Shown one piece after another: positions 1-14,843 of a DNA stretch of 15,591 nucleotides. Position 1 is the stretch's first letter; every line of letters starts with the position of its first letter. The notes beneath the pieces are model-generated. The model searched no databases. It had not been told where the DNA came from and worked only from the letters and a program-made list of their open reading frames with translations. The stretch comes from Candidatus Bathyarchaeia archaeon. GTDB taxonomy: Archaea > Thermoproteota > Bathyarchaeia > 40CM-2-53-6. The stretch is taken from NCBI GenBank assembly GCA_049517415.1, contig JBEKSC010000039.1, positions 1 to 15,591 of the forward strand, given 5' to 3'. A program made the position numbers and the translations under genes.

Positions 1-114
1 GACGCCAGGGAATACGCGGACAATAGAGTTCAGGTCAATATTCTGATGGAGATTACCTGTCGCGACCACGTTCTCAATGTTGATGTACGCTTTATGTTCG
101 GCCAGAGGGCGCAC
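1..114 (-). CDS. tbp: TATA-box-binding protein, N-terminal part (runs off the left edge; not in the ORF track)
   Basis: The minus frame reads VRPLAEHKAYINIENVVATGNLHQNIDLNSIVRVFPGV, the archaeal TBP first-repeat pattern (I-N-I-E-N-V-V-A...I-D-L-N...PGV). An in-frame TAG at 144-142 bounds the start to GTG 114 or CTG 105. Confidence 0.88.
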   Translation of the reverse strand, partial: MRPLAEHKAYINIENVVATGNLHQNIDLNSIVRVFPGV

Positions 115-141
115 CCGAGTGATACTTGCCTGTCTGTGCAA

Positions 142-258
142 CTAAACTCGTGGGCAATTCTCGAAGCCGCATTTCTGGCAAACTCCTCGTTTTCCTTCTT
201 GGATAGATATCAACATAGCAAGCTCCGAGGCCGAATGCTCAAGGTCAGGTAAGAACAT
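142..258 (-). CDS. Possible 38-aa peptide or gene remnant with one CxxC
   Basis: ATG258 to TAG142 gives MFLPDLEHSASELAMLISIQEGKRGVCQKCGFENCPRV. It is in the same frame as tbp and starts right beside the repeat. It may be non-coding. Confidence 0.15.
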   Translation of the reverse strand: MFLPDLEHSASELAMLISIQEGKRGVCQKCGFENCPRV

Positions 259-261
259 GTC

Positions 262-356
262 TGTGTGTGGTATCAATGGTGCGAGCATCGTGATTTGAAC
301 CGTCGTCGTTCGTCGTCAGAAAAAGTGTGTGTGGGTCTAATGGTGCGCACACACAC
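262..356 (-). repeat. Composite repeat, full copy 1 (short ACCA arm + (GAC)n spacer + tRNA-3'-like core + (CA)n arm)
   Basis: Identical over 95 bp to 4429-4523. Minus strand 301-277 reads GG TTCAAAT CACGA TGCTCGC A CCA. Internal 9-bp inverted repeat GTGTGTGTG (325-333) / CACACACAC (348-356). Confidence 0.95.
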
Positions 357-389
357 TAAACCCGCGCCCCTTCGGGGCGGAATGGTAGG
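348..389. repeat. (CA)n tract + GC hairpin module, copy 1
   Basis: 362-389 matches 1934-1961 at 26/28 and both follow CACACACACT. The stem is CGCCCC-TTC-GGGGCG, a GAA triloop on the minus strand. Confidence 0.9.
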
Positions 390-411
390 CGTGATTGCGC
401 GTGACGGTTGG

Positions 412-1749
412 TTAGGTAGAGGTTGGTTTTCGTCCACCCCGCAACGCGACCGCAATCAATACGGCGGCCAACAAGACTACGGCTGCGAGTATGAGGAGTT
501 GGTTTTGCTGGATCAGGCTCATCAGGTCACTTGATGTTTGAGTTGAAGACGCTGAGGTTTCAGTTGAGGAAGCTGAGGATTGCGTTACTACGGCTGCGTT
601 AACTGTTAGAACCAGGTTGGCCACGTGGCTCAATCCTCCTCCACTCCCGGTCACCGTCAACGTATACGAACCAGTTGCAACATCCCCTGATAATACGACG
701 GTGAGGGTCGAAGCAAAGTCTGGAGCTCCCGAGGGGTTGCTGAAGCCCCCATTGGCGCCCGAAGGCAATCCTGAGAGAGACAATGAAACCTGCGAGTTGA
801 ACCCATTCAAACCAGCAACATTAACCGCATATGAAGTGGTCTCACCTTGAAGCACGGTTTGGGATGGCGGACTCACGTTAATCTGAAAATCAGGAATCTG
901 AGATGCAGTCGAATAGGTCGAAGAGGCTGTAGTCGTTTGCTGTGAGGATGCTTGTGCCACCGTGAAAGTAATGCTCTTCATATTGTTACTCTTGTTCGGG
1001 TCCTGACCCACCGGAATCGTCGCTACACCCCAAGTCAGAGTGTGCGTTCCAGCCGTGGCGATCCAGGTAGTTTGTGTGCTCACTGTCATGGGTGTACCCA
1101 GCGGCCCGGGGTAGGTCAATGATCCACCACCGCAGGATACTCCGTCAATCTGGCAGGCAGCAGCGAACTGTTGCGGAAAAGATCCTACAGAGGAGAGCGC
1201 CATCACCGCCATACTAAACGTGACCGGATCACCGAGATGCGGATCAGGGGGACTCAACGAGACAGAAGTGATCGCCCAATCGGTAGCCGAACCAGAAGCA
1301 GAAGTTGTGGTCGTGACCATGGGAATCACCTGGAAGTTTGCGTATCCCGCTACTACGGCTCCGCCACCTGGCCCTGGTATTATCATCTTGAGAAAAGCTA
1401 CGTAACTTCCAACATTGTATATGGGATCACGCTCCGTCTCGACTACGTCTCCAGAATCAATTCCCCCGTAATGGGCCTCCCAGATACTCGGACAGCTTTG
1501 GCAGGTCGAATAGCCGAGGGTACCTGAGGCCGTGCCTGTGTACTGCACGTTAACGCGGAAGAAAAGATGGAAATTGTAGCCCGCGTAGATTGTGTTGGGC
1601 GGCAGCCCGGTAAACCCGATTGGCTCAATCCAAAGGTCAATACCACTCGCGTTCACGGTCTGCAGAACACCCGCCACAAACCCAGAGATGAGAACGCATG
1701 AGAGAAGCAGAATTACGATTACAACTCGCCTATCGCTAGGAGCCAACAA
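412..1749 (-). CDS. Secreted, membrane-anchored cell-surface protein with CARDB/Ig-like beta-sandwich domains
   Basis: 445 aa with a hydrophobic N-terminal signal. DWAITSVSLSPPDPHLGDPVTF...NKSNN is CARDB-like and DFQINVSPPSQTVLQGETTSY is Ig-like. Ser/Thr linkers, a C-terminal TM helix and a basic tail follow. Confidence 0.85.
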   Translation of the reverse strand: MLAPSDRRVVIVILLLSCVLISGFVAGVLQTVNASGIDLWIEPIGFTGLPPNTIYAGYNFHLFFRVNVQYTGTASGTLGYSTCQSCPSIWEAHYGGIDSGDVVETERDPIYNVGSYVAFLKMIIPGPGGGAVVAGYANFQVIPMVTTTTSASGSATDWAITSVSLSPPDPHLGDPVTFSMAVMALSSVGSFPQQFAAACQIDGVSCGGGSLTYPGPLGTPMTVSTQTTWIATAGTHTLTWGVATIPVGQDPNKSNNMKSITFTVAQASSQQTTTASSTYSTASQIPDFQINVSPPSQTVLQGETTSYAVNVAGLNGFNSQVSLSLSGLPSGANGGFSNPSGAPDFASTLTVVLSGDVATGSYTLTVTGSGGGLSHVANLVLTVNAAVVTQSSASSTETSASSTQTSSDLMSLIQQNQLLILAAVVLLAAVLIAVALRGGRKPTST

Positions 1750-1789
1750 TTATCATGTATATTTCATCGGGCCAAGAATTAGCATTTAC

Positions 1790-1805
1790 GATAACATATG
1801 TTATC
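1790..1805. promoter_or_regulatory. Perfect 16-bp palindrome, candidate operator
   Basis: GATAACATATGTTATC is self-complementary and lies 41-56 bp upstream of the surface-protein start. Confidence 0.5.
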
Positions 1806-1846
1806 AGCCGGAGGCTACGCTCCAGAGAAGACTCGTTAAACATTTG

Positions 1847-1878
1847 AAAGTGTGTGGATCTCCCTGGTGCGCATCAAC
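1847..1878 (-). repeat. Short-type ACCA arm of the repeat family
   Basis: AAAGTGTGTGGATCTCCCTGGTGCGCATCAAC. The 15-mer CTGGTGCGCATCAAC (1864-1878) is identical to 7176-7190. Confidence 0.8.
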
Positions 1879-1887
1879 GCCAACCTA

Positions 1888-1931
1888 ACGGTTCAATTCT
1901 CGATGCTCACACCACTAGACCACACACACTT
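1888..1931 (+). repeat. tRNA-3'-like core + (CA)n arm, plus orientation
   Basis: GG TTCAATT CTCGA TGCTCAC A CCA CTAGACCACACACACTT. About 36/42 identical to the reverse complement of 262-303. Confidence 0.9.
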
Positions 1932-1961
1932 CGCCGCGCCCCTTCGGAGCGAAATGGTAGG
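1921..1961. repeat. (CA)n tract + GC hairpin module, copy 2
   Basis: CCGCGCCCCTTCGGAGCGAAATGGTAGG (1934-1961) is 26/28 identical to 362-389. Confidence 0.9.
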
Positions 1962-2035
1962 ATGTGTTTGCTCATTTTACGGTAGCATAGAAGTATAGGA
2001 TACTAGCCGCTACAGTATTTCTTGAATGCGCAGCT

Positions 2036-3265
2036 TCAGCGGCGCGAATATCGATAGTTTGAACGGCGGCGGTGCCTTGGGTATCGTGATCTTCCCCCGA
2101 ACGCGCGACGAGTTTCACCACTAGATATCCACGATTCCTCTCTCCCCCCAGGGCCAGAGGTGAAGCTAAGTCGCTCAATCCGGTCGTCTGCCATCGATTG
2201 TATTGCTCGAAAGTCGCCATTTTGCTCCGCGGATACTATCGTCACCGCGGTTCCTGTTTTGCCCGCTCGTCCAGTTCGACCAATCCTGTGGAAGTAAGTA
2301 TACGGATTCTGAGGGACGTCATAGTTGATAATGTGTGTAACTCCATCAACATCCAAGCCTCTTCCGGCTAAGTCAGTGGCAACTAGGATACGACTCTGAC
2401 CGCTTCGAAACGTCTTCATTGCTCCATCGCGTTGATGTTGGGTAAGGTCACCGTTCAGTGCTATGGCATCTTGATTTCTCCTCCGGAGTGATTGATTCAA
2501 CCAAAATGTGCTCCGTTTGGTTCGACAGAAAACTATGGCACGATGCACTTCTTTGTCCTGCAGAATTCTCAGCAGCGCATCAAGTTTTCTTTCCGGGTCC
2601 ACTTGGTAGTAGTATTGGCTGATCTCCCTGACGCTGAGATCCTCCGGTTCGATCAGAACTTCGCGAGGATTCTTCATATGTCTACGGGCAAGTTTCAGTA
2701 CATCCTTGGGCATCGTTGCGGAGAAGAACGCGATTTGACGTTTACTTCTAGTCTTAGTTAGAATATGCTCAACGTCACCAATGAAACCCATGTCCAGCAA
2801 CCTGTCAGCCTCATCCAAAACAACGTACTGGACTTTGTCAAGGTGAAGGGATCCGCGTTCTACATGATCGATGACTCGCCCGGGTGTTCCAACTATAATC
2901 TGAGGGCAATCTTCCAAGGCGCGCATTTGAACATTAATTGATTGACCACCATAGATCGCAAGAGCACGCTTGCGAGTGAATCTGCCATACGAGTTAATGT
3001 CGCCTGCTACTTGCACCGCAAGCTCGCGTGTCGGAACTAGCACCAGCGCCTGAATATTCAGATTCTTTTCGTCAACGATCTCCAGGAGCGGTAGCCCGAA
3101 GGCAGCGGTCTTTCCAGTTCCAGTATGCGCTTGACCAATGACATCGCTCCCGTGCCGCAGAAGCGGAATAGTTGCTTCTTGGATCGGAAACTGTCGCTCG
3201 AATCCAAGTGCTTTGATAGCATCCAATATTTCTGGGCTTAAACCCAGTTTCTCGAAAGTACTCAT
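2036..3265 (-). CDS. deaD: DEAD-box ATP-dependent RNA helicase (DeaD/CshA-like)
   Basis: Has the Q motif (F..LGL...PIQ), GTGKT, PTRELA, TPGR, DEAD, SAT, RGLD and HRIGRTGR, plus an Arg-rich tail. Start moved to ATG3265 (MSTFEKLGL) because AAGGAG precedes it. Confidence 0.97.
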   Translation of the reverse strand: MSTFEKLGLSPEILDAIKALGFERQFPIQEATIPLLRHGSDVIGQAHTGTGKTAAFGLPLLEIVDEKNLNIQALVLVPTRELAVQVAGDINSYGRFTRKRALAIYGGQSINVQMRALEDCPQIIVGTPGRVIDHVERGSLHLDKVQYVVLDEADRLLDMGFIGDVEHILTKTRSKRQIAFFSATMPKDVLKLARRHMKNPREVLIEPEDLSVREISQYYYQVDPERKLDALLRILQDKEVHRAIVFCRTKRSTFWLNQSLRRRNQDAIALNGDLTQHQRDGAMKTFRSGQSRILVATDLAGRGLDVDGVTHIINYDVPQNPYTYFHRIGRTGRAGKTGTAVTIVSAEQNGDFRAIQSMADDRIERLSFTSGPGGREESWISSGETRRAFGGRSRYPRHRRRSNYRYSRR

Positions 3266-3483
3266 AGATTTTTTCTCCTTATCTTCCACGTCGCGGGTCC
3301 AAGATGAAGACCGAAGACTGGTTCCGTCTTTCACTTATCGTCGGAACGAGATTTCGGTTGTTTCCTCAGACTTCGGCGACTTCGGTCAGTTGCAGCAAGA
3401 AGAAGAACATGCGGTCAATCGTTGCAAATGACTCGTGCCTCTCGTTCTCGACAACTAACTTAGTGCATTCTCGCCTTGGTTCA

Positions 3484-3489
3484 ATATAA
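3484..3489 (-). promoter_or_regulatory. Candidate TATA box (TTATAT) for the helicase, implying a ~200-nt leader
   Basis: The minus strand reads CTTATATTGAACC about 220 bp upstream of ATG3265. No closer TATA-like box was seen. Confidence 0.4.
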
Positions 3490-3690
3490 GGATAGAAAGA
3501 CAAGTACATCGCAAGAATGTCCTTGCTCTGAACTACGGCTTTGTCTGAATACTCGCGAATGCAGCACTCATCGCCTAGGAAAAATGGGTATGAAAAAACA
3601 GTTCCAAAGGGCACCAGGGTTTCAGTGGGAGAGCTTTGTGGCTCTAACTTACTTCAACTTCCTGCTGCAAGGAAATCTTTGGTTCCTTGA

Positions 3691-3852
3691 TTACTTCGAT
3701 CTCTTCTTTGCTTTCTTCTTCGCTTTCGGCACAGAAATCACGTGTAGATATAATGTGACTGTTGTCGGTTTAACACTTCCGACCACCACGAAGTTCTGTC
3801 CGCGCTGCCAGACTTCCTCGTCTTCTTCCTCTTCGTCTGCTTCTTCTGCCAA
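3691..3852 (-). CDS. Hypothetical 53-aa protein with acidic N-terminus and Lys-rich C-terminus (below the ORF-track cutoff)
   Basis: TTG3852 to TAA3691 gives MAEEADEEEEDEEVWQRGQNFVVVGSVKPTTVTLYLHVISVPKAKKKAKKRSK. The sequence is low complexity and purine-rich, so other frames are also open. Confidence 0.35.
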   Translation of the reverse strand: MAEEADEEEEDEEVWQRGQNFVVVGSVKPTTVTLYLHVISVPKAKKKAKKRSK

Positions 3853-3951
3853 AACGACGAAGTATTGTTAGAATCTTGGGCTCGAATGTTCCTTGTTGAT
3901 GTAGGTTAGTGTGGTTTAGAGTCTTGTTTTCGTGAGTTTTTAGATGGTTCG

Positions 3952-3990
3952 TAGCCCACACACACTTTTACGACGACGAATGAGAGTTCA
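3952..3990 (+). repeat. Degenerate middle part of the composite repeat
   Basis: TAGCCCACACACACTTTTACGACGACGAATGAGAGTTCA versus TAGACCCACACACACTTTTTCTGACGACGAACGACGACGGTTCA (reverse complement of copy 1). Confidence 0.8.
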
Positions 3991-4052
3991 CAACGAAATT
4001 CGTGATTTAGGAGTTTTCTGCTAAATCATTATGGCTATTAGGGCCAAGTCTT

Positions 4053-4068
4053 GTTCAATTCTTGGTGC
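4053..4068 (+). repeat. Truncated tRNA-3'-like core
   Basis: GTTCAATTCTTGGTGC is 14/16 identical to 1891-1906. Confidence 0.5.
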
Positions 4069-4170
4069 ATTCTGTTTTAGAGTTGGTTCCGTCATCGCCC
4101 TGGCCGGGGCTCGGGACTTGTTAGCAATTGGTACAAAGTCAGGTTCTTTCTCAAAAGTTTTCTGGACTTT

Positions 4171-4194
4171 GGGGGGTGGGAATTTGGTGCGCAC
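4171..4194 (-). repeat. Degenerate short-type ACCA arm
   Basis: GGGGGGTGGGAATTTGGTGCGCAC versus GTGTGTGTGGGTCTAATGGTGCGCAC. TGGTGCGCAC is exact. Confidence 0.55.
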
Positions 4195-4227
4195 TATAAG
4201 ACCCTCATAACCCCTAAGAAAAACCTT

Positions 4228-4270
4228 CTAAAACCCTACAACGTCCACGTCTAAAACTCAACATCCACGT
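4228..4270 (+). repeat. Imperfect tandem duplication
   Basis: CTAAAACCCTACAACGTCCACGT is followed directly by CTAAAACTCAACATCCACGT. Confidence 0.65.
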
Positions 4271-4428
4271 GGAAGGGCGAAGATTCGAACGCGCCGCAAT
4301 GGGTCAAGGTTTTGCGTGATCTTGTGGAACTGCGCGACACGACGCTAAAGGAGTTGGTCACTCAGGAATGGCAGGACTGATTTCTGCTCGAGGCGAATTC
4401 TCGCGTCCGGGTTTTGGACCGTCAATTG

Positions 4429-4523
4429 TGTGTGTGGTATCAATGGTGCGAGCATCGTGATTTGAACCGTCGTCGTTCGTCGTCAGAAAAAGTGTGTGTG
4501 GGTCTAATGGTGCGCACACACAC
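4429..4523 (-). repeat. Composite repeat, full copy 2
   Basis: 95/95 identical to 262-356 in the same orientation, offset 4167 bp. Confidence 0.95.
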
Positions 4524-4567
4524 AAATTTGAATTATTGCATTAACATAATGGCACCGATGATAAGAG

Positions 4568-5086
4568 TTGACTAAAGTTAGAGATGTGATGTCCACCAGG
4601 ATACCTCGGGTGAATTCTTCGGCTACCGTCCTGGAAGCCTGTACAATTATGAACCGTGAGAAGGTTTCAGGAGTAGTTGTCTTTCAGGAAGATAAGGCGA
4701 TAGGCATGTTGACTGATAGAGGACTACTCCGAGACTTCGCCCCCTTAAACAAGAGACCGGATGAAGTGAAGGTAAGTGAGGTCATAACGCCGCTCCTTAA
4801 GATAGATGCGGGAGCATCGACGAAAGAGGCGGCCAAGACAATTGTAGGGAATGCGTTCACGAGGGTCGGCGTTTTTGATGGCGACAAGTTCTTGGGCTGG
4901 GTTACGATAACCGACTTGGCAAGAGAGGCTTCAAAGAAGAACTTGCTCGATGCACTGCTTCGTCATAATGAACCAGAACTTGTTGTTGTATGTCCAAATT
5001 GCAGGAAAGGCGTCCTAAGAAAGATTATGAACAAAGAGGGGCAGATTTTGAGATGGGAGTGTTCTCAGTGCGACTTCGTCACTTGA
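4568..5086 (+). CDS. CBS-domain pair (Bateman module) with C-terminal Zn ribbon
   Basis: KVRDVMS...GMLTDRGL...KVSEVI...GWVTITDLA, then CPNC...CSQC. Confidence 0.92.
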   Translation: MTKVRDVMSTRIPRVNSSATVLEACTIMNREKVSGVVVFQEDKAIGMLTDRGLLRDFAPLNKRPDEVKVSEVITPLLKIDAGASTKEAAKTIVGNAFTRVGVFDGDKFLGWVTITDLAREASKKNLLDALLRHNEPELVVVCPNCRKGVLRKIMNKEGQILRWECSQCDFVT

Positions 5087-5138
5087 CGACATGTACTTAG
5101 AACACGTCTGATTAGAGCGCACCTCTCTTCAAAACTAG

Positions 5139-5168
5139 AGTTCAATTTCTGATGCTCGCACCATTAGA
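5139..5168 (+). repeat. tRNA-3'-like core, plus orientation
   Basis: AG TTCAATT TCTGA TGCTCGC A CCA TTAGA. 5140-5165 is 22/26 identical to the reverse complement of 4442-4467, with a 15-bp exact block. Confidence 0.88.
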
Positions 5169-5198
5169 AGCCGCCCCCGCCGCTCTTGACTAGATTAA

Positions 5199-5268
5199 CT
5201 TTACGACGCTGAAGACGACGAACGACGACGCCGACGCTAATACGAACGACGACGACGCGGCGAAGTTC
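5199..5268 (+). repeat. Expanded (GAC)n spacer module
   Basis: Contains GACGACGAACGACGACG (5214-5230), the exact reverse complement of 301-317, plus further CGAACGACGACGACG. Confidence 0.8.
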
Positions 5269-5377
5269 TATGAATCATGGAAATTGAAACACGCGAAGAC
5301 AACAGCACAGTGGCATGTAGCGCTAAATTTGTACGCCCATCAAACCTGCAACACAATTCAGAGCGCGAAGAGAATCA

Positions 5378-5833
5378 TCACCGACTGAGAACCACAGTTC
5401 CATGTCCCATTTGTTTGACTTTCGGAGCCTTTGATTTTACCCAACGGAAAATTTGTAGCGCAACGGACACCAGAAGCAAGACGATTGCAGCATTCTCAAG
5501 AAGAATTTTGAAACGGTCTACCGCTTCTTTCTCCACCGTTGGAACTACATGACTTACGTAGCCAGTAATATATTCAGACCCTATTGCTGTCTCACTCAAG
5601 TTCACTGAAATGGTACATGGGTGTACGGCGCATGACGTTCCTGAGGCAATCGTCGTTGAGGTCATAGGAGTGGACGAAATTTGCGTTACGATACTCACGC
5701 TTGTCTGACTCGTGAAAGGCTGGATGATTTGCGCGGCAAAATAATTGCTGAGAAGCAAGCAAAAGAGAGCTAGCAATCCCAAGACCGTTCCCGCATTTTG
5801 CAGGTATCTATCAAGTCGCGGAGTCGGTTGCAT
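5378..5833 (-). CDS. Hypothetical membrane protein (2 TM, Ser/Thr-rich loop)
   Basis: 151 aa with N- and C-terminal hydrophobic helices flanking a T/S-rich segment. Confidence 0.7.
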   Translation of the reverse strand: MQPTPRLDRYLQNAGTVLGLLALFCLLLSNYFAAQIIQPFTSQTSVSIVTQISSTPMTSTTIASGTSCAVHPCTISVNLSETAIGSEYITGYVSHVVPTVEKEAVDRFKILLENAAIVLLLVSVALQIFRWVKSKAPKVKQMGHGTVVLSR

Positions 5834-5881
5834 GAAAAAACTAAAGGACGAACTTACCTATATCTCAATCAAAATCGTTCG

Positions 5882-6064
5882 TCACCGCTCTTTGCCTCCC
5901 AAGTAGTCTTTGGCTATTGCTTTCGCTTCATCCGCTGTCTTAATCGGCAAAGTCTCTACCCAGTGAGGGTAAGGCTGCTGGGATGTCTCAACAGCGTTAG
6001 GATTCTCGGACCGCCGCCGCGAAGGGCCATCCATCAGCTGTGCTTTTCGGTATTTCGCTACCAA
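5882..6064 (-). CDS. Short hypothetical ORF or gene remnant
   Basis: 60 aa, overlapping the GT2 stop. The amphipathic end IKTADEAKAIAKDYL looks protein-like but no family was recognised. Confidence 0.25.
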   Translation of the reverse strand: MVAKYRKAQLMDGPSRRRSENPNAVETSQQPYPHWVETLPIKTADEAKAIAKDYLGGKER

Positions 6065-6972
6065 TCGAATTTCGTCCTGAATCCCCTAGGTGCGGCCAAA
6101 GTGAGCATCATCGCCAACATGTCCAGCATCCTGTATGCCGCTGCGAAAAGGAACAGCACGGGAGCCTCCCAGAAGCTGATGCCCATCATTTCCCTATGCC
6201 TCTTGATTGCTTCGCCATCTAGAGCTAAGCGCCCGAAATAATATAACAGCGGGGCTAGCGCCCACGCTTTCAGTAATCCGCCGCCCCGAAGATTGGGATC
6301 GATTTTTCTGGTCTCAATTACGTGAAAGCCTTCTTGGAACCTCATTTCCACGAAATCACTTATCCGATATGGAAAGTAGTGGTTGATCCGAGCCGACGGT
6401 GAGAAGTAGATGCGGATTCCGTTGTTGTACATGTCGTTGGCCATCGTTATGTCGCCGCCGGTTCTCCAGAACCTCTCGTCGAAGAGGAATTTGCTCGGCT
6501 TGCGGACACCAAAGTTGTTGGCCGCGAAGAACTTAGTGAATTTGGCATTGGTGCTTGGGAAGTATCCCCAGTCTGTGATGTTCATGACTCTGGCGAGAAA
6601 CCCTCCCACGTACAAGCTACGCCCCGCAACCGCCTCAGCTCCGTTTCCGAAAGGCTCAGTGATTGCTGCTAACCAATCAGTGGAAGGGACACAATCACTA
6701 TCGGGGAAGACCACGATCGGTGAACGTGCGTTCTCATAGCCTATGTTCTTAGCTTGAAAGTACCCAGATCCTTTCGCCTCGACTATCCTGACTTGCGGGA
6801 ACAGTTTACTTAGTTCTTGCAACGTAAACTGTGACAATCCGACGTCTATAACCAGGATCTCGCAATCAGGCGGACACTGACGGTAAATGGAGTCCAACGT
6901 CTTGATTAGAAGATGAGGCCCGTAGTGGAGAGCATTGACAGTTTCGACAACGACTGAAACCTTCGGAGCCAA
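6058..6972 (-). CDS. Family 2 (GT-A) glycosyltransferase
   Basis: KVSVVV, EILVIDVG, AKNIG, FPDSDC (DxD), and W-L-A-A-I..PF. Confidence 0.92.
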   Translation of the reverse strand: MAPKVSVVVETVNALHYGPHLLIKTLDSIYRQCPPDCEILVIDVGLSQFTLQELSKLFPQVRIVEAKGSGYFQAKNIGYENARSPIVVFPDSDCVPSTDWLAAITEPFGNGAEAVAGRSLYVGGFLARVMNITDWGYFPSTNAKFTKFFAANNFGVRKPSKFLFDERFWRTGGDITMANDMYNNGIRIYFSPSARINHYFPYRISDFVEMRFQEGFHVIETRKIDPNLRGGGLLKAWALAPLLYYFGRLALDGEAIKRHREMMGISFWEAPVLFLFAAAYRMLDMLAMMLTLAAPRGFRTKFDW

Positions 6973-7108
6973 ACGAAATCCGCTTCGGTCCTGTGCGGTA
7001 ACACGAACAATGTTTTTGAACGCGTCATAATTTGAATATTGCTGATTAGCAAACTGAAATTAGACTGACAGTACGGACTTGGCTATGGTACTGCATTCAT
7101 TCAGTTAT

Positions 7109-7190
7109 TCGTGCGGGCAACGTAATTTGAACCGTCGTCCGTCGTCGTTTCAGGCAATTTGTGTGTGTGAGTATGCTGGTGCGCATCAAC
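7109..7190 (-). repeat. Composite repeat, diverged full copy 3
   Basis: Minus 7133-7109 reads GG TTCAAAT TACGT TGCCCGC A CGA. On plus this is followed by CGTCGTCCGTCGTCG, GTGTGTGTG and CTGGTGCGCATCAAC, the same module order as copy 1. Confidence 0.88.
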
Positions 7191-7244
7191 TGTCCTCACC
7201 TTACGAATCGCAGTAGCTTCGACAAACAGCACGTTTTCAACCGG

Positions 7245-8207
7245 CTACTTCGCGATTGTTCTTGACACTTCTCCAACTAACCGCATTGTCCGATAGTACG
7301 ATTCTGCCTTATCACGCCCCGCCAGAATCGGCGAAACGAGGAGCTCTGCGGCGCCAGAATCGAAAGTCTCTAGAAGCCGCTCTTTGACGCGCGATTCATC
7401 TCCATACAAAGCAATTGCATCGATCATGCTGTCGCTCCAGGCTTTCGTCTGGGCAGCTTCTGGAAAGCCTGCGTCAATGAACATTTGCGCGTAGTTTGGA
7501 AGGGAGGGATAGACGGCTAGCTGTTCGCGTATGGCGGCCAATGCTTCAGTTGGATTTTCGTGGACGCATACAGGAACCTGAGCGACCAGTGGGGGTACTG
7601 GGCGTCCGATTCTTCTTGCACCTGCCCGCAACGCCGGGACGGCGACTTGCTTGACATAGACTCTAGGGCAGACCCATGTAATTGCCCCATCTGCCTCGGC
7701 GCCGCACAGCTCAAAAGATCTGCGTCGGAGTGCCGCAGCCATTACCGGCACATCCAGCGTGACACCAGTCTCCGCATGGGCCTGATAGTGGGAACCATCA
7801 TAGTTCACTTTGCCCTGCTGTAGCAGTGGCTTGAGAATTCGCAAATAGTCACGCAGGTGCGCCAGCGGGGCACGATATTCCAATCCAAAGACGCTTTCAA
7901 TACCCTCTTTGTGGCCGACGCCAATGCCCAACCGAAACCGACCGGGAGCCAGGTCAGTGATGACACGCACTTGCTGCACCATCACAACGGGGTGGCGAGG
8001 CCATGTGGGCGTAATTGAAGTGCCCAGCAGTATACGTTCGGTGTGGGCTGCGCAGACCGCGAGCATGGTCAGGGCGTCATGTCCAGCCCCTGCAGTAGTC
8101 AGCCAAGCTGCTTGGATTCCCATCTCCTCGGCCTGTTGGATCCGCTTCAGCACTTCGCGGCTATCTCTACCAGTCACCTGGACGCCGACTCTTCTTCGAC
8201 TTTCCAT
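7245..8207 (-). CDS. LLM-class flavin/F420-dependent oxidoreductase
   Basis: AEEMGIQAAW, TERILLGTSITPTWPRHP, GRFRLGIGVGH and ADG motifs of the luciferase-like TIM barrel. Confidence 0.93.
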   Translation of the reverse strand: MESRRRVGVQVTGRDSREVLKRIQQAEEMGIQAAWLTTAGAGHDALTMLAVCAAHTERILLGTSITPTWPRHPVVMVQQVRVITDLAPGRFRLGIGVGHKEGIESVFGLEYRAPLAHLRDYLRILKPLLQQGKVNYDGSHYQAHAETGVTLDVPVMAAALRRRSFELCGAEADGAITWVCPRVYVKQVAVPALRAGARRIGRPVPPLVAQVPVCVHENPTEALAAIREQLAVYPSLPNYAQMFIDAGFPEAAQTKAWSDSMIDAIALYGDESRVKERLLETFDSGAAELLVSPILAGRDKAESYYRTMRLVGEVSRTIAK

Positions 8208-8239
8208 TTGAATACCCTGTGTACTTTCATCGTAACATG

Positions 8240-8251
8240 GCGATATATCGC
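8240..8251. promoter_or_regulatory. 12-bp palindrome containing a TATA-like core upstream of the LLM gene
   Basis: GCGATATATCGC lies 33-44 bp upstream of ATG8207. Confidence 0.35.
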
Positions 8252-8493
8252 TTGTCGCGAGTCTTAACAGCTATACGACCTTTTGGTCGCGCCGCGATGA
8301 TTCTTGGAGTGAATATGGATTTGGTAGTGATTAGCGCAGGCAACGCGGCGATACGTGCTACTTGTTATCCAGGAACATTTGAGGAAGGCAAACTTCCAAA
8401 GGCTCGCAGACACAGCCAGAGAACGCGTAACGACAGGAGATTAACAGCCGAAAGGCTTTCGAGCCCTCGATATCGTGGAGACAAATTCTGTTT

Positions 8494-9390
8494 TCAGGGC
8501 GATTGTTCGTATTTTAACGGTCTCTCGTGTATCGGGGCGTGCTTGACTTCCAGATTTGGCATTCCCCAACACTCGTGTCCCATATCATGGGCCATGATTC
8601 CGAGGCCCTCAGTTTCAATTTCTCCATCATATCTTTTCGTTAGGTCCAGAAGTTTCTTCTTCGGCATTGCTCTTAGGACTTTGATGGCTTCTGGTTTTAG
8701 CAAGAGTAAACTGATGATGTCTCTCTTGGTTGCTTGAAATCTCGCTCCTCTGATGAATGGGTTCTTTCCACCGTGAGGGAAGGGAGGGAAGATTAGGCCG
8801 TCTCTATGAATGTCGGCCTTGATGAGCAGCATGGTTCCTCCGACGGCGTCCAGTTTTACGAGTTCACCCTCTTTTCTCATCTGGTCCAGGTGGTACCTGC
8901 CTTTGTCTCTCCAAGCGTTTTGTTCGAAGCTGCTGCCTCCGTACTCAGTGACACAGTGGGGTTGAACGATATCCCTCCCAGTGGCTAAGAGCCTTTCAAT
9001 GATATCATGTGGGTATTCAACAACATCCACATCCAACCATAAGACCCAGTCTTCGTCGTCAAGCGCGCGGAAGAGGAGATGATTGCGACTCTTCGCCAGC
9101 ACAGTTCGACGTTCCTTCTGAAGATACGAAGTCCATCGAGGGGTCCCTAGTGGGAGGTGAAATCCAAAGTCCTTCTTCCAGACGGATGCGGATCTAAAAT
9201 CCTTGTCCAAGCCGGGTAGTCTTTGGACTAGGTTTGTGTAGGTGTTATCGGAGCTATCGCTTTCTAGCAATCCCAGAGAGATTAATCCGTGTGGGTAGGT
9301 TAGTAGGTGAAGAGACTGGAAATAGTTGTCAAGGAACCGCTCGGCATCCTTTACAGGCGTCAGGATGAGAATCTTATCCTTGTGCTCCAT
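8494..9390 (-). CDS. Anp1/Mnn9/Van1-family (GT62-like) glycosyltransferase
   Basis: ILILTP, LTYPHGLISLGLL, RR..LAKSRNHLL, WVLWLDVD, LDAVGGTMLLIKADIHRDG..FP and IETEG...G.PN. GGAGG at 9402-9398 and TTTAAG at 9428-9423 lie upstream. Confidence 0.9.
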   Translation of the reverse strand: MEHKDKILILTPVKDAERFLDNYFQSLHLLTYPHGLISLGLLESDSSDNTYTNLVQRLPGLDKDFRSASVWKKDFGFHLPLGTPRWTSYLQKERRTVLAKSRNHLLFRALDDEDWVLWLDVDVVEYPHDIIERLLATGRDIVQPHCVTEYGGSSFEQNAWRDKGRYHLDQMRKEGELVKLDAVGGTMLLIKADIHRDGLIFPPFPHGGKNPFIRGARFQATKRDIISLLLLKPEAIKVLRAMPKKKLLDLTKRYDGEIETEGLGIMAHDMGHECWGMPNLEVKHAPIHERPLKYEQSP

Positions 9391-9474
9391 GTCAATTCCT
9401 CCACAGTTTTGTAATTACCTATCTTAAAGACTCTCTAAATGACCTACACCCAAAGTCGGCAAGTCTTAGCTGAC

Positions 9475-10698
9475 TCAGCCTAATGGTCTGCTACGAGTTA
9501 GAGTCATTGCGTCGGGTGGACAATGAGCATCGGCGAAGCCCTCGACGACTTGTTGGATTTGACGCATGAAACGCTCTTTAGAGAATTGTGTTCGCTTAGG
9601 CCTAAGATATTTCCGTAACGAATCTTGTTCGTCTCGGTTCTGCATTACACGGGTGATCTTTCTTACGGCCTCGTCAACGGTTCCAAATGTTAGACGATCG
9701 TCTGCGCCAATTATCTCGTGTTGTCCGCCACCCCGTGGAACAAAGACAATGCAGCCAGCATGCATCATTTCGGCAACCGCTATACCGAACGGCTCATTTA
9801 CCATTCCGTGAATCCCATAACGATGGGACGTGACGAGTCCTTCGAGTTCCCTTCGAGTCACATTCTCGCTTAGAGTAAGCCATGCTCGATCCTTTGCGAG
9901 GCGCTGCAGCCGCTTCAAATATGCTCGTGATTCGTCTTTGGTTCCAATGATGTGCAGATGAGCTTCAGGAACTGTTCTTCTGACGCGTGCCGTGATCTCG
10001 ATGAGCGTCTCAAAGTTTTTCGATGGGATAATTCTACCGATGCAGACGAGTCCGTTTTCCCGCTGCCCCCAAGGGACTTCTGGAAAGTCCCCTGCAACAG
10101 GCGGATAAACCGTTTTACTCTCGAATCCATAAATCTCCTTTAGTTTCCTTCCGGTCCATTTGGAATTCACCAAAGTTAAGTTATGTTTCATTCGCTCGAA
10201 TGAAAAGTCGCACAGACGCATCCACGGTCGAAGTTCTCCTCTGAACAGCGTCGAGAGGCTATGGCGAGATAAGCGGCTGAGACTGAGAGTAGGCTTTTCG
10301 TGCGATTCTGAGATCCAATAGGGAGGTTCGTGAAAATACTGAATACCTCTGCGATCGAAGTCTGCCTCATTGTTTACCGAAATAATAACGTCAAAGTCAT
10401 TTCTCATCTTCTTGCACAAGCGTAGCAAGAGCCCTCGTTCAAAAGACGAAAGTACGGGATTAAGCGGGTTCACCTTTGCGAGAAGAGTGAGCAGTCGAGG
10501 TGCAGTGATCGCACTTAACTCCGAGCGCTTTAGCGATGAGCCAAAGAGACGATTAATTTCATCGAAATCGACGGGCTCCCAAGTCAGAATCGAAACCGCA
10601 TACTCGTTTTTTAACGCCTCAATAATGTATGCCGCGACTACGTTTCCGCCCCCGGACGCGGTTAAATAAGGTTGGAAAACCAAAACCCTTCTCTTAAT
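9475..10698 (-). CDS. Family 4 (GT-B) glycosyltransferase, ALG11-like
   Basis: FQPY...GGG N-terminal loop, IGRI.P.K and NEPFGIAVAE (EX7E). Start is TTG10683 or the non-canonical ATT10698, which lies 6 nt after GGTGA. Confidence 0.92.
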   Translation of the reverse strand: MKRRVLVFQPYLTASGGGNVVAAYIIEALKNEYAVSILTWEPVDFDEINRLFGSSLKRSELSAITAPRLLTLLAKVNPLNPVLSSFERGLLLRLCKKMRNDFDVIISVNNEADFDRRGIQYFHEPPYWISESHEKPTLSLSRLSRHSLSTLFRGELRPWMRLCDFSFERMKHNLTLVNSKWTGRKLKEIYGFESKTVYPPVAGDFPEVPWGQRENGLVCIGRIIPSKNFETLIEITARVRRTVPEAHLHIIGTKDESRAYLKRLQRLAKDRAWLTLSENVTRRELEGLVTSHRYGIHGMVNEPFGIAVAEMMHAGCIVFVPRGGGQHEIIGADDRLTFGTVDEAVRKITRVMQNRDEQDSLRKYLRPKRTQFSKERFMRQIQQVVEGFADAHCPPDAMTLTRSRPLG

Positions 10699-10858
10699 CG
10701 ACCTTCACCTTCAGGTTCCGAAGGCCGACTCACCAGAATTCAATAGGGATTCTCTCGGGCGCATTGGCCAACAATTTCTTCGCTCGACTAGATATAAGCC
10801 CTTCAGCCCCTCGGCATCTATTTTCAAAAGTCCTGACGTCCGAGACTATGATCAGTCA

Positions 10859-11635
10859 TCACTCTATGCGTTTCTGATAAAGGATTATTTCTGGATATGA
10901 TCTCAAAATAGTCCACGTAATCCAAGGAATAGAAAACCGCGAGTGGGAGAAGACCAACGGGATTTGCGAAGAGTACATTTGAAGCAGTTGTTTCTTTGCC
11001 TTCGACATCCATCTTATTGATCTTCTCGCCCTCATGACTTTCGCTAGATTACTACGAGTCCAGTTGAAGACTGAGAGGGCGTAAGGGTAATCAACGTAGT
11101 AGTATAGGTCGGTTGGATCAACTGCGCCCTCGGCGGCCTCTCTGACAAGAATATGGTCGAGGTGTCCTCCAACACCGAGAGGCACTACAAACACGCTCTG
11201 ATTTCTGAGCGACAATATGGTTCGTATCAGTACATTGAGCATCTGATCATTTGATGTGCTTCGCCTACGCCCCACGTCAGAATAGCGCAGATTTTCACGA
11301 TCGTATCGAAACGCTGCATCAACGAAGCCTAGCTGGTTCCACGATACACCTAGGGCACTCATCGCCTTGTTGTCTTCATAGATTCTGATGCGTTGAAGAT
11401 CGGCCAAAGAGTCACGGGCTGGGCCTTCAGTCGATGACGTAACTAGTCTAGTGAAAACGGTAACAACACTCACTTGAAGACCAAGTTCTTTCCATGCAAG
11501 AATATGGTCTGAACAATCGAGTGCTGCGTCGTCAGGATGAGGCGAAAGCACGACGATTTCCTTACCGCCTTGCACCCATAACGCTCCCAACAAACCGTTG
11601 CCTATTGTTGGAAAAGCTTTGCTTTGCCGATCCAA
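10859..11635 (-). CDS. PIG-L/LmbE-family N-acetylhexosamine deacetylase
   Basis: VVLSPHPDDA, R..ED, GGHLDH, YVDYPY and YSSQ motifs. The true start may be slightly downstream. Confidence 0.92.
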   Translation of the reverse strand: MDRQSKAFPTIGNGLLGALWVQGGKEIVVLSPHPDDAALDCSDHILAWKELGLQVSVVTVFTRLVTSSTEGPARDSLADLQRIRIYEDNKAMSALGVSWNQLGFVDAAFRYDRENLRYSDVGRRRSTSNDQMLNVLIRTILSLRNQSVFVVPLGVGGHLDHILVREAAEGAVDPTDLYYYVDYPYALSVFNWTRSNLAKVMRARRSIRWMSKAKKQLLQMYSSQIPLVFSHSRFSIPWITWTILRSYPEIILYQKRIE

Positions 11636-11796
11636 TGCTGCTCTCGCGAGCGCACGCTAACGCAACTCTCTCCATACTGGCCATAGAGCAGAGACTCCCA
11701 CCAATCCCGGAATAACCATAAAGATTTCGTTCGCGTTAGCATGCTTTTCTTACCCATGGCGATCCGAATACTATAGACTCGCTTGAAGGCGTCTGC

Positions 11797-12780: not shown

Positions 12781-12806
12781 CGACTCTTTAGAGGCTGGAG
12801 TACAGT

Positions 12807-13649: not shown

Positions 13650-13820
13650 TTATGGAGCGGAATTGCGTACTTCGACAAAACCTACAGTCATATTCCAATC
13701 ATCGGAACCCAGCATTTCCAAGAAAAACATCATACAATCGAGAGAAAAAGCGGTTCACGCGTGAGTCTGACATCACAAGGTTAGCCAGTAAAGCCCTGCA
13801 CATAAGCTTGCCCAAAGTTC

Positions 13821-14834: not shown

Positions 14835-14843
14835 CTAAAGCCT

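What the first reader, a model, noticed from the sequence alone, without database searches (positions are those of the whole stretch)
262..7190. Family of tRNA-3'-end-like sites punctuating an array of unrelated genes: candidate archaeal gene-cassette system
Seen: five cores share the layout G-TTCAAWT(7)-N5-TGCYCRC(7)-A-CSA, at 277-301(-), 1890-1914(+), 4444-4468(-), 5139-5163(+) and 7109-7133(-). They come with recurring modules: a (CA)4-5 arm, a short GCGCACCA arm, a (GAC)n spacer and a GC hairpin. All copies are intergenic. They separate tbp | surface protein | helicase | CBS | membrane protein+GT2 | LLM, genes with no shared function and mixed orientation. Established: T-loop(7)+5+7+discriminator+CCA is exactly tRNA positions 54-76, ...CGCACCA is typical of archaeal tRNA-Gly, and tRNA 3' ends are standard att cores for tyrosine integrases. 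Inference: these are tRNA-derived recombination sites that have lost T-stem pairing and now delimit 1-2-gene modules, functionally like an integron or pdif array, with the recombinase outside the window. Alternatives are scars of serial island integration or a non-autonomous dispersed repeat.
Basis: partly seen in the sequence, partly recalled or inferred. Interest (0 to 1): 0.88.

Follow-up and report, generated by a model that had tools for sequence, protein, structure and literature searches.

The report
Casposon landing sites bounding gene cassettes
The repeated tRNA-tail look-alikes are real, but they are most likely the landing sites and end scars of transposons moved by a Cas1-type enzyme (a casposase), which have stacked small gene cassettes side by side in this soil archaeon.

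Summary
Observation confirmed. The five cores sit at the stated coordinates, against 0 matches in 200 shuffles. They belong to a family of 31 full copies on 10 of the genome's 59 contigs.

Interpretation partly right. The sites do copy a tRNA 3' end, and they do bound 1-2-gene modules. The best-supported enzyme is a Cas1-type casposase, not a tyrosine integrase.

Each site reads: 17-bp "pad" (GTTCAAAT-N5-TGCY) | 14-bp T (CGCACCA+7) | (CA)n element tip. The conserved positions match the published target determinants of family-2 casposases:
- TCAAATC at -15..-9 (PMC6614799).
- A 14-bp duplication starting CGCA at the tRNA end (PMC6977970).

Supporting cases:
- On contig C3, a 410-aa casposase gene (best solved relative 6opm, E 7e-71) lies in an 8.6-kb element. 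It has (CA)n tips and sits in a tandem array sharing one identical 14-mer three times.
- In a related genome, a 1.1-kb single-gene, cas1-less cassette sits in a real tRNA-Gly with a 13/14 duplication.
- The window's helicase cassette ends exactly at its tip in four genomes. It is 91-96% identical across species whose rpoB is only 77-85% identical.

The window itself holds no cas1 and no clean duplication pairs. I found no PolB.

Verdict: new variant of a known kind. Earlier notes of this scan reached the same reading on other DNA.

The parts
1..269 (-). Near end of the TBP cassette. Holds the TBP gene 5' end (141->1, continuing on contig C12), a 38-codon upstream ORF (258->142) and the element tip CCACACACA (269->261).
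   Evidence: C12:2-583 matches PF00352 at E 1.6e-61. C39:1-127 is the reverse complement of C12:1-127 at 100%. Tip seen.
270..283 (-). 14-bp T site 'Tb', CGCACCATTGATAC.
284..300 (-). 17-bp pad GTTCAAATCACGATGCT (tRNA T-loop mimic).
301..333 (-). Type-1 element end: (CA)4C-TTTTT-CTG(ACG)n.
   Evidence: The same end type occurs on the cas1 elements of C8 and C3.
334..347 (-). 14-bp T site 'Ta', CGCACCATTAGACC, lying between two tips.
348..1857 (-). Cassette X, carrying a 445-aa ORF with no Pfam hit (412-1749). Tips are CACACACAC (348-356) and GTGTGTGG (1850-1857). Its type-2 end contains the GC hairpin and AATGGTAGG (362-389).
   Evidence: (D9).
1858..1871 (-). 14-bp T site CGCACCAGGGAGAT.
1872..1890 (+). 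Remnant of an element end with a truncated tip (CA-TCAACGCCAACCTAACG). It resembles the TBP cassette's far end on C12.
   Evidence: My reading (C12:661 row). Inference.
1891..1921 (+). Pad GTTCAATTCTCGATGCT (1891-1907) plus T CACACCACTAGACC (1908-1921).
1921..4180 (+). Cassette Y, carrying a DEAD-box helicase (2036-3334, minus strand). Left end is (CA)n plus the type-2 GC-hairpin end; right tip is the G-rich variant GGGGGGTGGG (4171-4180). It holds extra material at 3507-3982 that G018 lacks, and a decayed type-1 end plus pad at 3955-4005.
   Evidence: Pfam. The left end is exactly at the tip in W, G021, G018 and G016, each with different flanks. Identity is 88-96% in the genus against rpoB 77-96%.
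4178..4191 (-). 14-bp T site 'Tc', CGCACCAAATTCCC. It overlaps the ambiguous end of Y's tip.
   Evidence: three-genome comparison of Y's right end.
4192..4436 (-). Small non-coding unit Z' (245 bp) with tip CACACACACAATTGACGG at 4436. Positions 4271-4348 are 99% identical to C53:1051-1128.
4437..4514 (-).
   Evidence: Repeat D2, 98 nt at 99% identity to 262-359. Also.
4515..5139 (+). CBS-domain cassette (gene 4568-5086) with left tip CACACACAC (4515-4523).
   Evidence: Pfam. The left boundary is at the tip in two copies in G002.
5140..5170 (+). Pad GTTCAATTTCTGATGCT (5140-5156) plus T CGCACCATTAGAAG (5157-5170).
   Evidence: The pad travels with CBS in G002:C11. Pad plus T plus the following C-rich tip are conserved in G016.
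5171..7169 (.). Unit G, carrying a 151-aa ORF (5378-5833) and a GT2 glycosyltransferase (6058-6972). Left end is the C-rich tip variant CCGCCCCCGCCGC followed by TTT(ACG)n (to about 5265).
   Evidence: The same C-rich tip occurs at C9:21031.
7170..7183 (-). 14-bp T site CGCACCAGCATACT. This is the last junction; the LLM gene and a glycosylation cluster lie to the right.
   Evidence: No profile hit beyond 7183 on this contig.

Best explanation
The cores are integration targets and junction scars of casposon-type transposons.

**Layout.** A complete site reads: pad (GTTCAAAT-N5-TGCY, 17 bp) | T (CGCACCA+7, 14 bp) | element tip (CA)n. Pad plus T copies positions 53-76 of a tRNA, plus 7 downstream bases.

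**Proposed mechanism.**
- A Cas1-family casposase, encoded elsewhere in this genome on elements with the same ends, recognises TCAAAT in the pad and CGCA at the start of T.
- It joins the two 3' ends of a (CA)n-tipped element 14 bp apart, which duplicates T.
- Repeated insertion gives pad-T-E-T-E-T arrays. In these, a single T sits between the (GT)n tip of one element and the (CA)n tip of the next.
- The '(GAC)n spacer' and the 'GC hairpin' are the inner parts of two kinds of element end.

**In the window.** Positions 1-7183 are such an array of cas1-less cassettes: TBP | 445-aa ORF | helicase | 245-bp unit | CBS | 151-aa ORF + GT2. They were presumably moved in trans.

**Shown:** the site anatomy; the 14-bp rule; cas1 inside elements with these ends and identical 14-mers; a cas1-less cassette in a real tRNA-Gly; cassette ends at the tips across genomes; and cassette similarity that disagrees with rpoB similarity.

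**Inferred:** that the casposase acts on these sites, that the window's own cassettes moved this way, and how T sites in opposite orientations arose.
For: 1. **Site anatomy.** In 43 of 56 junctions, CGCA lies exactly 14 nt before the (CA)n tip. 25 junctions are flagged as preceded by a pad and 15 by a neighbour's (GT)n tip. Among pad-bearing sites that have a tip, 21 of 30 are at 14 nt.

2. **Match to published targets.** I read passages found by term search in each paper.
- A. boonei casposase needs TCAAATC at -15..-9 and C+1/C+2 (PMC6614799). Here TCAAAT sits at -15..-10.
- M. mazei casposons make 14-bp TSDs with a conserved 5'-CGCA overlapping the last 4 bp of tRNA-Leu, and need upstream tRNA sequence (PMC6977970).
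- Tandem casposons sharing one TSD, and insertion in both orientations, are described (PMC4779613).

3. **Array on contig C3 (minus strand).** It reads pad | CGCACCACTATACC | E1 (8.6 kb) | the same 14-mer | E2 | the same 14-mer | E3. Flanks beyond the tips are unrelated. This 14-mer occurs only at these three junctions in the genome.

4. **Casposase in E1.** E1 holds a 410-aa Cas1 (PF01867, E 5e-52). Its best solved relative is 6opm_A at E 6.9e-71 over residues 9-404, against 3e-25 for the best CRISPR Cas1. A 72%-identical copy lies between (CA)n ends on C8. All 4 cas1 hits in the genome lie in or beside repeat clusters.

5. **Clean single insertion in G032.** A real tRNA-Gly(CCC) (RF00005, 47.9 bits) is followed by ...GGC | CGCACCAGTCCAGC | CACACAC ... 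1.08 kb with one 210-aa ORF ... GTGTGTGTG | CGCACCAGTCCAGA | host.

6. **Composite in G013.** Pad | CGCACCAGCCGACC | 3.4 kb with inner junctions | the same 14-mer.

7. **Class-wide sample of 201 genomes.**
- The pad+T+tip pattern occurs in 18, and its reversed control in 0.
- A casposase-like gene (E<=1e-40) occurs in 8.
- 5 genomes have both. That is 5 of the 18 with the pattern, against 3 of the 183 without it.
- cas1 lies within about 0.3-11 kb of a pad in G155, G149, G180 and G123.
- Related genomes are not independent, so these counts are descriptive only.

8. **Mobility of the helicase cassette.** Its left end is exactly at the tip in 4 genomes with unrelated flanks. Identity to the window versus rpoB identity:

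| Genome | Cassette | rpoB |
|---|---|---|
| G021 | 96% | 85% |
| G013 | 95% | 79% |
| G003 | 94% | 77% |
| G018 | 94% | 85% |
| G016 | 93% | 78% |
| G014 (closest relative) | 89% | 96% |
Against: - The window has no cas1.
- No window cassette has an identical pair of flanking 14-mers. The only identical 14-mers belong to the duplicated 98-bp module.
- Genome-wide, of 13 intervals with tips at both ends, 7 have T sites in the same orientation and 6 have convergent T sites. Only 1 (C3 E1) has identical T sites.
- Convergent T sites are not what one simple insertion gives. Examples are the helicase cassette in the window and in G021, and unit G.
- Identical 14-mers also occur in inverted orientation: in G013 at L018:4342, and at C12:661(+) against C12:2156 and 3461, both (-).
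- Seven real tRNA genes of this genome end in CGCACCA, and none carries an insert.
- 13 of the 18 genomes with the pattern gave no casposase-like hit. They include G138 (9 matches, 95% complete) and G034 (6 matches, 96% complete).
- No empty site was found for any insertion.
- No biochemical data exist for this casposase.
Confidence: 0.78

Rival explanations
1. The sites are att-like cores for a tyrosine (or other site-specific) recombinase. Circular cassettes are integrated, excised and inverted at them, as in an integron or a pdif array.
For: - The [(GT)n] [14 bp] [(CA)n] junction looks like a recombination site with inverted arms.
- T sites occur in both orientations, including identical 14-mers inverted. 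Site-specific inversion could keep that pattern.
- tRNA 3' ends are classical integrase targets (established knowledge; PMC4779613 notes integrase elements in the same tRNA-Leu as casposons).
- One sub-threshold PF00589 hit lies near a pad on C9.
Against: - A 14-bp asymmetric centre is about twice the spacer of known tyrosine-recombinase cores (recalled knowledge).
- None of the 5 other PF00589 hits lies in a repeat cluster.
- No recombinase was found in the ORFs of at least 90 aa of the C3 and C8 elements.
- The conserved positions are those mapped for casposases.
- cas1 sits inside elements with these ends.
Confidence: 0.07
2. A non-autonomous dispersed repeat (MITE- or REP-like module of 52-98 bp). 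It spreads on its own or by recombination and merely happens to lie between genes. The genes between copies are ordinary host genes, not cargo.
For: - The 98-bp module is duplicated at 99% within the window.
- 66-bp units occur in tandem on C2, C12 and C37.
- TBP and the helicase are neighbours in the window, G016 and G018, which could reflect inheritance of the region.
Against: - Similarity between genomes starts exactly at the tips and runs inward through the genes.
- Cassette identity disagrees with rpoB identity.
- A single-gene cassette with a duplication sits in a real tRNA-Gly.
Confidence: 0.08
3. The cores are pieces of working RNA genes: split, permuted or intron-laden tRNA halves, or tRNA-like small RNAs.
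For: - This genome's tRNA genes are heavily interrupted. ARAGORN finds only 8 without allowing introns and 28 with introns allowed.
- The cores copy tRNA positions 53-76, including CCA.
Against: - No tRNA or other Rfam family was found in the window, even at E<=1.
- There is no T-stem partner. The five bases of the would-be stem vary freely while the protein-contacted positions are kept.
- No matching 5' halves were seen next to the cores.
Confidence: 0.02

Closest known systems
Family 2 casposons of Methanosarcina mazei (casposase structure 6OPM; PMC6977970, PMC4779613)
   Same: - A Cas1-family casposase: the C3 protein aligns to 6opm_A over residues 9-404 at E 6.9e-71.
- A 14-bp duplication beginning 5'-CGCA at the last bases of a tRNA gene.
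- Dependence on upstream tRNA sequence.
- Intergenic look-alike targets.
- Tandem elements sharing one duplication.
- Either orientation.
   Different: - No PolB, HNH or HTH-protein family was found in the cas1 elements (Pfam on ORFs of at least 90 aa). The review PMC9939771 calls these genes universal for the family.
- Elements range from about 0.25 to 9 kb.
- Most units carry no cas1 and only one or two ordinary genes.
- Ends are (CA)n tips with two kinds of inner end.
- Most targets are dispersed tRNA mimics that have lost the T stem.
- The host is a Bathyarchaeia archaeon (host label taken from earlier scan notes, not tested here).
AciBoo-C1 casposon of Aciduliprofundum boonei (PMC6614799, PMC5137440)
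   Same: - The target is a leader motif, TCAAATC, at -15..-9 in the T-loop part of a tRNA gene, plus the first bases of the duplicated segment.
- The rest of the duplicated segment is little constrained. This matches the conserved and variable columns here.
   Different: - That target is tRNA-Pro. Here it is a tRNA-Gly-type end that includes the encoded CCA.
- That is a single PolB-bearing element. Here there are arrays of cas1-less cassettes.
Integron gene-cassette arrays (functional analogue only)
   Same: One enzyme and one kind of short site gather unrelated single genes, in a row, at a defined place. Cassettes are shared between species.
   Different: - The enzyme family differs: Cas1 against a tyrosine recombinase.
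- The sites are a target plus duplication plus inverted tips, not folded attC hairpins.
- No platform promoter or attI-like site was identified.
- Gene orientation is mixed.
CRISPR leader-repeat-spacer growth (mechanistic relative)
   Same: The pad acts like a leader and the 14-bp T like a repeat that is copied at each insertion. 66-bp tandem units (T plus 52 bp) occur on C2, C12 and C37.
   Different: T is 14 bp, not 25-50 bp. The inserts are element ends or whole gene cassettes. No cas2 or other cas families were hit by Pfam in the ORFs of at least 90 aa of the cas1 elements.

Membership tests
Casposons (family 2 type) | Cas1-family casposase of the family-2 kind (long form with a C-terminal extension) | tested here: met
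   Met in the genome, not in the window. C3 has a 410-aa protein and C8 a 404-aa protein, both PF01867. The best solved relative is 6opm_A, aligned over residues 9-404 at E 6.9e-71. The window has no cas1.
Casposons (family 2 type) | Target at a tRNA 3' end, with a T-loop leader motif and CGCA at the start of the duplicated segment | tested here: met
   TCAAAT sits at -15..-10 and CGCA at +1..+4 in all five window sites. A real tRNA-Gly is occupied in G032.
Casposons (family 2 type) | 14-15-bp direct target-site duplication flanking the element | tested here: met
   Met for C3 E1 (14/14, the 14-mer present three times in the array), the G032 cassette (13/14) and a G013 composite (14/14).
Casposons (family 2 type) | The same duplication around the window's own cassettes | tested here: not met
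   No window cassette has matching flanking 14-mers. Two units (Y and G) have convergent T sites.
Casposons (family 2 type) | Terminal inverted repeats | tested here: met
   (CA)n/(GT)n tips occur at both ends of C3 E1, E2, the C8 element, the G032 cassette and window cassettes X, TBP and CBS (left end). Inner parts are only partly inverted repeats. Y and G have G/C-rich tip variants.
Casposons (family 2 type) | Family B DNA polymerase ('self-synthesizing'), HNH nuclease and HTH proteins | tested here: not met
   Pfam at E<=0.001 on 25 ORFs of at least 90 aa from C3 E1, E2 and the C8 region gave no polymerase, HNH or HTH family. Shorter or very divergent genes were not excluded.
Integron / tyrosine-recombinase att arrays | A tyrosine recombinase linked to the array | tested here: not met
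   PF00589 gives 6 hits in the genome. None is in the window or in the main clusters. One sub-threshold hit on C9 lies near a pad and a cas1 fragment.
Integron / tyrosine-recombinase att arrays | A core of two inverted binding arms around a 6-8-bp crossover spacer, or a folded attC | tested here: not met
   The segment between the inverted tips is 14 bp in 43 of 56 junctions. Folding of attC type was not tested.
tRNA genes or halves | Cloverleaf, or at least T-stem pairing | tested here: not met
   ARAGORN found 0 in the window. Rfam gave 0 matches at E<=1. The stem columns vary without partners.
MITE-like non-autonomous elements | Small non-coding unit with the ends of an autonomous element and a target duplication | tested here: inconclusive
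   Z' (4192-4436) and the 52-bp 'type-1 end + pad' units have one good tip each and non-identical flanking T sites.

The most novel reading that the evidence does not exclude
Bathyarchaeia carry a casposase-driven gene-cassette system, an archaeal counterpart of integrons built on a Cas1 enzyme.

- Polymerase-less casposons supply the enzyme.
- Cas1-less cassettes of one or two ordinary genes are moved in trans. The cargo even includes TBP and a DEAD-box helicase.
- The tRNA-Gly-like landing site is itself carried in element ends. Arrays therefore create new targets as they grow, in the manner of leader-repeat growth in CRISPR.
- Cassettes spread between species.
Probability: 0.5. Interest if true: 0.8.

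Novelty: new variant of a known kind. Interest (0 to 1): 0.62.

Why it matters
**What is known.** Casposons are known as a few families of large, polymerase-encoding elements. They are valued mainly as the likely ancestors of the CRISPR adaptation machinery.

**What this adds, if the reading holds.**
- A casposase lineage works without a polymerase gene of its own.
- It serves many small cas1-less cassettes and builds arrays at dispersed mimics of a tRNA end.
- It moves ordinary cellular genes between species of an abundant uncultured soil and sediment archaeal group.
- It would be a second, independent way to build gene-cassette arrays, besides integrons.
- It would be a natural intermediate between a transposon (target plus duplication) and a repeat array that grows at a leader.

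**Practical use.** The site rule (TCAAAT at -15, CGCA at +1, 14 bp, (CA)n tip) allows automatic mapping of this accessory DNA in metagenome-assembled genomes, where it also breaks assemblies.

**Literature searched.** The held library gave no paper joining casposons or casposases with Bathyarchaeia in substance: 3 papers with passing mentions by the counts in the search listing. No non-autonomous casposon was among the 20 of 2,234 hits listed by a looser search, none of which contains the word casposon. The library covers only openly licensed papers and preprints.

Tried and rejected
- **RNA gene.** ARAGORN and Rfam found nothing in the window.
- **Split-tRNA idea.** No 5' halves or T-stem partners lie beside the cores.
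- **Matching 14-mers around each window cassette.** None was found apart from the duplicated 98-bp module.
- **Pure nesting model.** In this model each element carries an inner pad and new elements insert inside older ones. It predicts many T sites followed by non-tip DNA and each inner T present twice. I saw only a few such T sites, and the inner T of C3 E2 occurs only once.
- **Two convergent host pads used in one event.** This predicts divergent T sites next to the tips. 0 of 13 tip-bounded intervals show that.
- **T as part of the inverted repeat.** Rejected, because the cleanest single insertions (G032, C3 E1) have direct T sites, and Y's left tip abuts T in either orientation in different genomes.
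- **Flipping of T.** One idea I could not test: T between two inverted element ends could be flipped by recombination between those ends. That would explain the inverted identical 14-mers.
- **Empty-site search** for the G032 insertion in its two congeners: no match.
- **PolB, HNH or integrase** in the cas1 elements: none found by Pfam.
- **Occupied real tRNAs in this genome.** All seven that end in CGCACCA are unoccupied.
- **Not done.** Supplementary files of the casposon papers were not opened. The TIR and TSD tables there could refine the comparison.

Full report
**1. The observation**

The window is a whole 15.6-kb contig (C39) of a 2.65-Mb, 59-contig genome.

The strict layout matches at 277-300(-), 1891-1914(+), 4444-4467(-), 5140-5163(+) and 7109-7132(-), against none in 200 shuffles.
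- The accompanying (CA)n runs, the TGCGCACCA 'short arm', the (GAC)n stretches and the GC hairpin are also real.
- The strict layout occurs 20 times in the genome.
- A profile built from those copies finds 31 full copies at E<1e-4. They lie on only 10 contigs, mostly small contigs or contig ends: C2, C3, C8, C12, C37, C39, C41, C47, C53 and one on C1. The family is therefore strongly clustered and breaks the assembly.
- ARAGORN and Rfam see no RNA gene in the window.

**2. Anatomy**

Aligning all copies and scanning for 'CGCACCA ... CACACA' gives one rule. In 43 of 56 junctions, a 14-nt segment starting CGCACCA (here 'T') is followed at once by a (CA)n run.

What lies upstream of T:

- In 25 junctions it is flagged as a 17-bp 'pad', GTTCAAAT-N5-TGCY.
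- In 15 it is flagged as a (GT)n run, the end of a neighbouring unit.

The (GAC)n 'spacer' is the inner part of one kind of element end: (CA)n-TTTT-(ACG)n. The GC hairpin plus AATGGTAGG is the inner part of a second kind. The second kind is shared by the 445-aa-ORF cassette and the helicase cassette (D9).

**3. The enzyme**

I tested that lead as follows.

- Cas1 (PF01867) has four hits in the genome: C3:145490, C3:142652, C8:21065 and C9:17654. All lie in or beside repeat clusters.
- On the minus strand of C3 the sequence reads pad | CGCACCACTATACC | (CA)n ... 8.6 kb ... (GT)n | the same 14-mer | (CA)n ... 8 kb ... (GT)n | the same 14-mer | (CA)n. The DNA beyond the tips is unrelated. This 14-mer occurs at no other junction in the genome.
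- The first element (E1) encodes a 410-aa Cas1. Its best solved relative is chain 6opm_A at E 6.9e-71 across nearly its whole length. The best CRISPR Cas1 scores 3e-25.
[quoted passage not shown] That 6OPM is this structure is taken from earlier scan notes and recall; the PDB title seen reads only 'CRISPR-associated endonuclease Cas1'.
- A 72%-identical gene lies between similar ends on C8.
- None of the 25 ORFs of at least 90 aa tested in these elements hits a polymerase, HNH, HTH or recombinase family.

**4. Agreement with published casposase targets**

I read passages found by term search in each paper, not the whole texts.

- The A. boonei casposase needs TCAAATC 9-15 bp upstream of the duplicated segment, plus the first two bases of that segment. 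It tolerates loss of the distal half of the segment (PMC6614799).
- M. mazei casposons make 14-bp duplications with an invariant 5'-CGCA that overlaps the last 4 bp of tRNA-Leu. They need upstream tRNA sequence (PMC6977970).
- Tandem elements sharing one duplication, intergenic look-alike targets and both orientations are described (PMC4779613).

In the sites here, TCAAAT is at -15..-10 and CGCA at +1..+4. The five bases between, the former T-stem strand, vary freely, and the last seven bases of T are only weakly conserved. In that call the TTCAAAT and CGCACCA columns were selected for by construction.

Only the positions the protein reads are kept.

**5. A real tRNA as target, and a cas1-less cassette**

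The pattern pad+T+tip occurs in 18 of 201 sampled genomes of the class. Its reversed control occurs in none.

- In G032 one match is the 3' end of a genuine intron-bearing tRNA-Gly(CCC) (Rfam 47.9 bits). It reads ...GGC | CGCACCAGTCCAGC | CACACAC ... 1.08 kb with a single 210-aa membrane ORF ... GTGTGTGTG | CGCACCAGTCCAGA | unrelated DNA. This is a single-gene cassette without cas1, with inverted tips and a 13/14 direct duplication.
- In G034 an intron-bearing tRNA with the same kind of end is likewise followed by T and a tip.
- A casposase-like gene (E<=1e-40) is found in 8 of the same 201 genomes. Five of them are among the 18 with the pattern. In G155, G149, G180 and G123 it lies within about 0.3-11 kb of a pad.
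- Thirteen genomes with the pattern gave no such hit, and three with the gene gave no strict pattern. Related genomes are not independent, so I draw no statistic from this.

**6. The window read with this rule**

Going right to left on the minus strand, the junctions are:

- T 7170-7183.
- An unoccupied inner pad+T at 7102-7132.
- Pad+T 5140-5170, on the plus strand.
- The module Ta | type-1 end | pad | Tb at 4437-4514.
- Tc 4178-4191.
- Pad+T 1891-1921, on the plus strand.
- T 1858-1871.
- The second copy of the module at 270-347.

The units between them are:

- G (151-aa ORF + GT2).
- The CBS cassette.
- A 245-bp non-coding unit.
- The helicase cassette Y.
- Cassette X (445-aa ORF).
- The TBP cassette.

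The TBP cassette runs off the contig into C12 (127-bp overlap; TBP Pfam hit). It ends at C12:660 with (GT)n | T. C12 carries further junctions up to about 8.8 kb, so the array is probably at least 16 kb long.

No cas1 lies in the window.

**7. Are the window's units mobile?**

Helicase cassette:

- Its left end is exactly at the (CA)n tip in the window, G021, G018 and G016. Outside the tip lies a pad+T in two of them, and an inverted T plus a neighbour's tip in the other two. Further flanks are unrelated.
- Its G-rich right tip is also shared.
- Its identity to the window disagrees with rpoB identity:

| Genome | Cassette | rpoB |
|---|---|---|
| G021 | 96% | 85% |
| G013 | 95% | 79% |
| G003 | 94% | 77% |
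| G018 | 94% | 85% |
| G016 | 93% | 78% |
| G010 | 92% | 77% |
| G008, G005 | 91% | 77% |
| G014 (closest relative) | 89% | 96% |

- This discordance argues for exchange between species.

Neighbourhood: in G018 the helicase cassette lies next to TBP in the opposite orientation. In G016 a different unit fills the slot between TBP and the helicase.

CBS cassette: it starts at its tip in two places in G002.

**8. What does not fit**

- No window unit has matching 14-mers on its two sides.
- Y (in the window and G021) and G have T sites pointing towards each other.
- Genome-wide, of 13 intervals with tips at both ends, 7 have T sites in the same orientation, 6 are convergent and 0 divergent. Only C3 E1 has identical T sites.
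- Identical 14-mers also occur in inverted orientation: in G013, and at C12:661(+) against C12:2156 and 3461, both (-).
- A single concerted insertion cannot give this.
- Two observations suggest units also move as composites with fossil inner junctions. In G013, identical outer 14-mers enclose 3.4 kb with inner junctions. On C3, E2 is flanked by the array's 14-mer but holds a different inner one.
- Flipping of T by recombination between the inverted ends that flank it is a further possibility. I could not test it.
- Many type-1 ends are followed directly by a pad, giving 66-bp tandem units on C2, C12 and C37. The origin of these units is unresolved.
- The seven real tRNAs of this genome that end in CGCACCA are unoccupied.

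**9. Rivals**

- A tyrosine-recombinase system is poorly supported. None of the 6 PF00589 hits is in the window or the main clusters. One sub-threshold hit on C9 lies near a pad and a cas1 fragment. The 14-bp centre does not suit such enzymes (recalled knowledge).
- A free-standing repeat with ordinary host genes in between is contradicted by similarity that starts at the tips and by the rpoB discordance.
- RNA-gene readings fail.

**10. Verdict**

The sites are casposon-type targets, duplications and end tips. The window is an array of cas1-less cassettes.

- Known already: casposons, their tRNA-end targets and tandem insertion.
- Apparently undescribed in the library searched: the lack of a polymerase gene, the many small cas1-less cassettes, the dispersed target mimics and the Bathyarchaeia host. 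The host label is taken from earlier scan notes and was not tested here.
- Earlier notes of this scan reached the same reading on other contigs of this genome and on other genomes. I re-derived it here from independent loci.

Noticed in passing
window 1-141 and C12:1-583 (L013): A TBP paralogue sits inside a tip-bounded cassette. Its first ~127 bases recur at 86-95% identity at several places in many genomes of the genus, for example 4 or more places in G006 and 3 in G018. This suggests that transcription-factor paralogues are spread by these cassettes.
   Followed up: partly
window 7184-15591: The right half holds LLM, three glycosyltransferases, PIG-L, a Stealth protein, two methyltransferases and peptidase A4. 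It has almost no DNA match in 40 relatives, not even in G014, whose rpoB is 96% identical. It looks like a strain-specific glycosylation island. It begins with CATCAAC, the same 7 bases as the end remnant at 1872.
   Followed up: no
window 3551-3850: A ~300-bp segment inside or beside the helicase cassette recurs at 75-80% identity in many genomes, twice or more in some, and at C34:19147-19438 of this genome. It overlaps a 131-aa ORF with no Pfam hit.
   Followed up: no
window 3507-3982: This stretch is absent from the G018 copy of the helicase cassette. Its right edge carries a decayed type-1 end plus pad (3955-4005), but no T was recognised at its borders.
   Followed up: partly
window 5171-5183; C9:21017 region; G016 (L016:15477): A C-rich tip variant, CCGCCCCCGCCGC, replaces (CA)n after a normal pad+T in three places. 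The helicase cassette's right tip is a G-rich variant. Different tip types may mark sub-families or decay.
   Followed up: no
window 142-258 (-): A 38-codon ORF with a CxxC...C pattern lies just upstream of TBP, inside the cassette (my reading).
   Followed up: no
whole genome: tRNA genes encode their CCA ends and are mostly interrupted. ARAGORN finds 8 without introns and 28 with introns allowed. This agrees with earlier scan notes on heavy intron load.
   Followed up: no
C3:128103-128355: A real intron-bearing tRNA lies 90 bp upstream of an occupied pad. That pad closes the far end of the 23-kb C3 array and faces the pad at C3:151800.
   Followed up: partly
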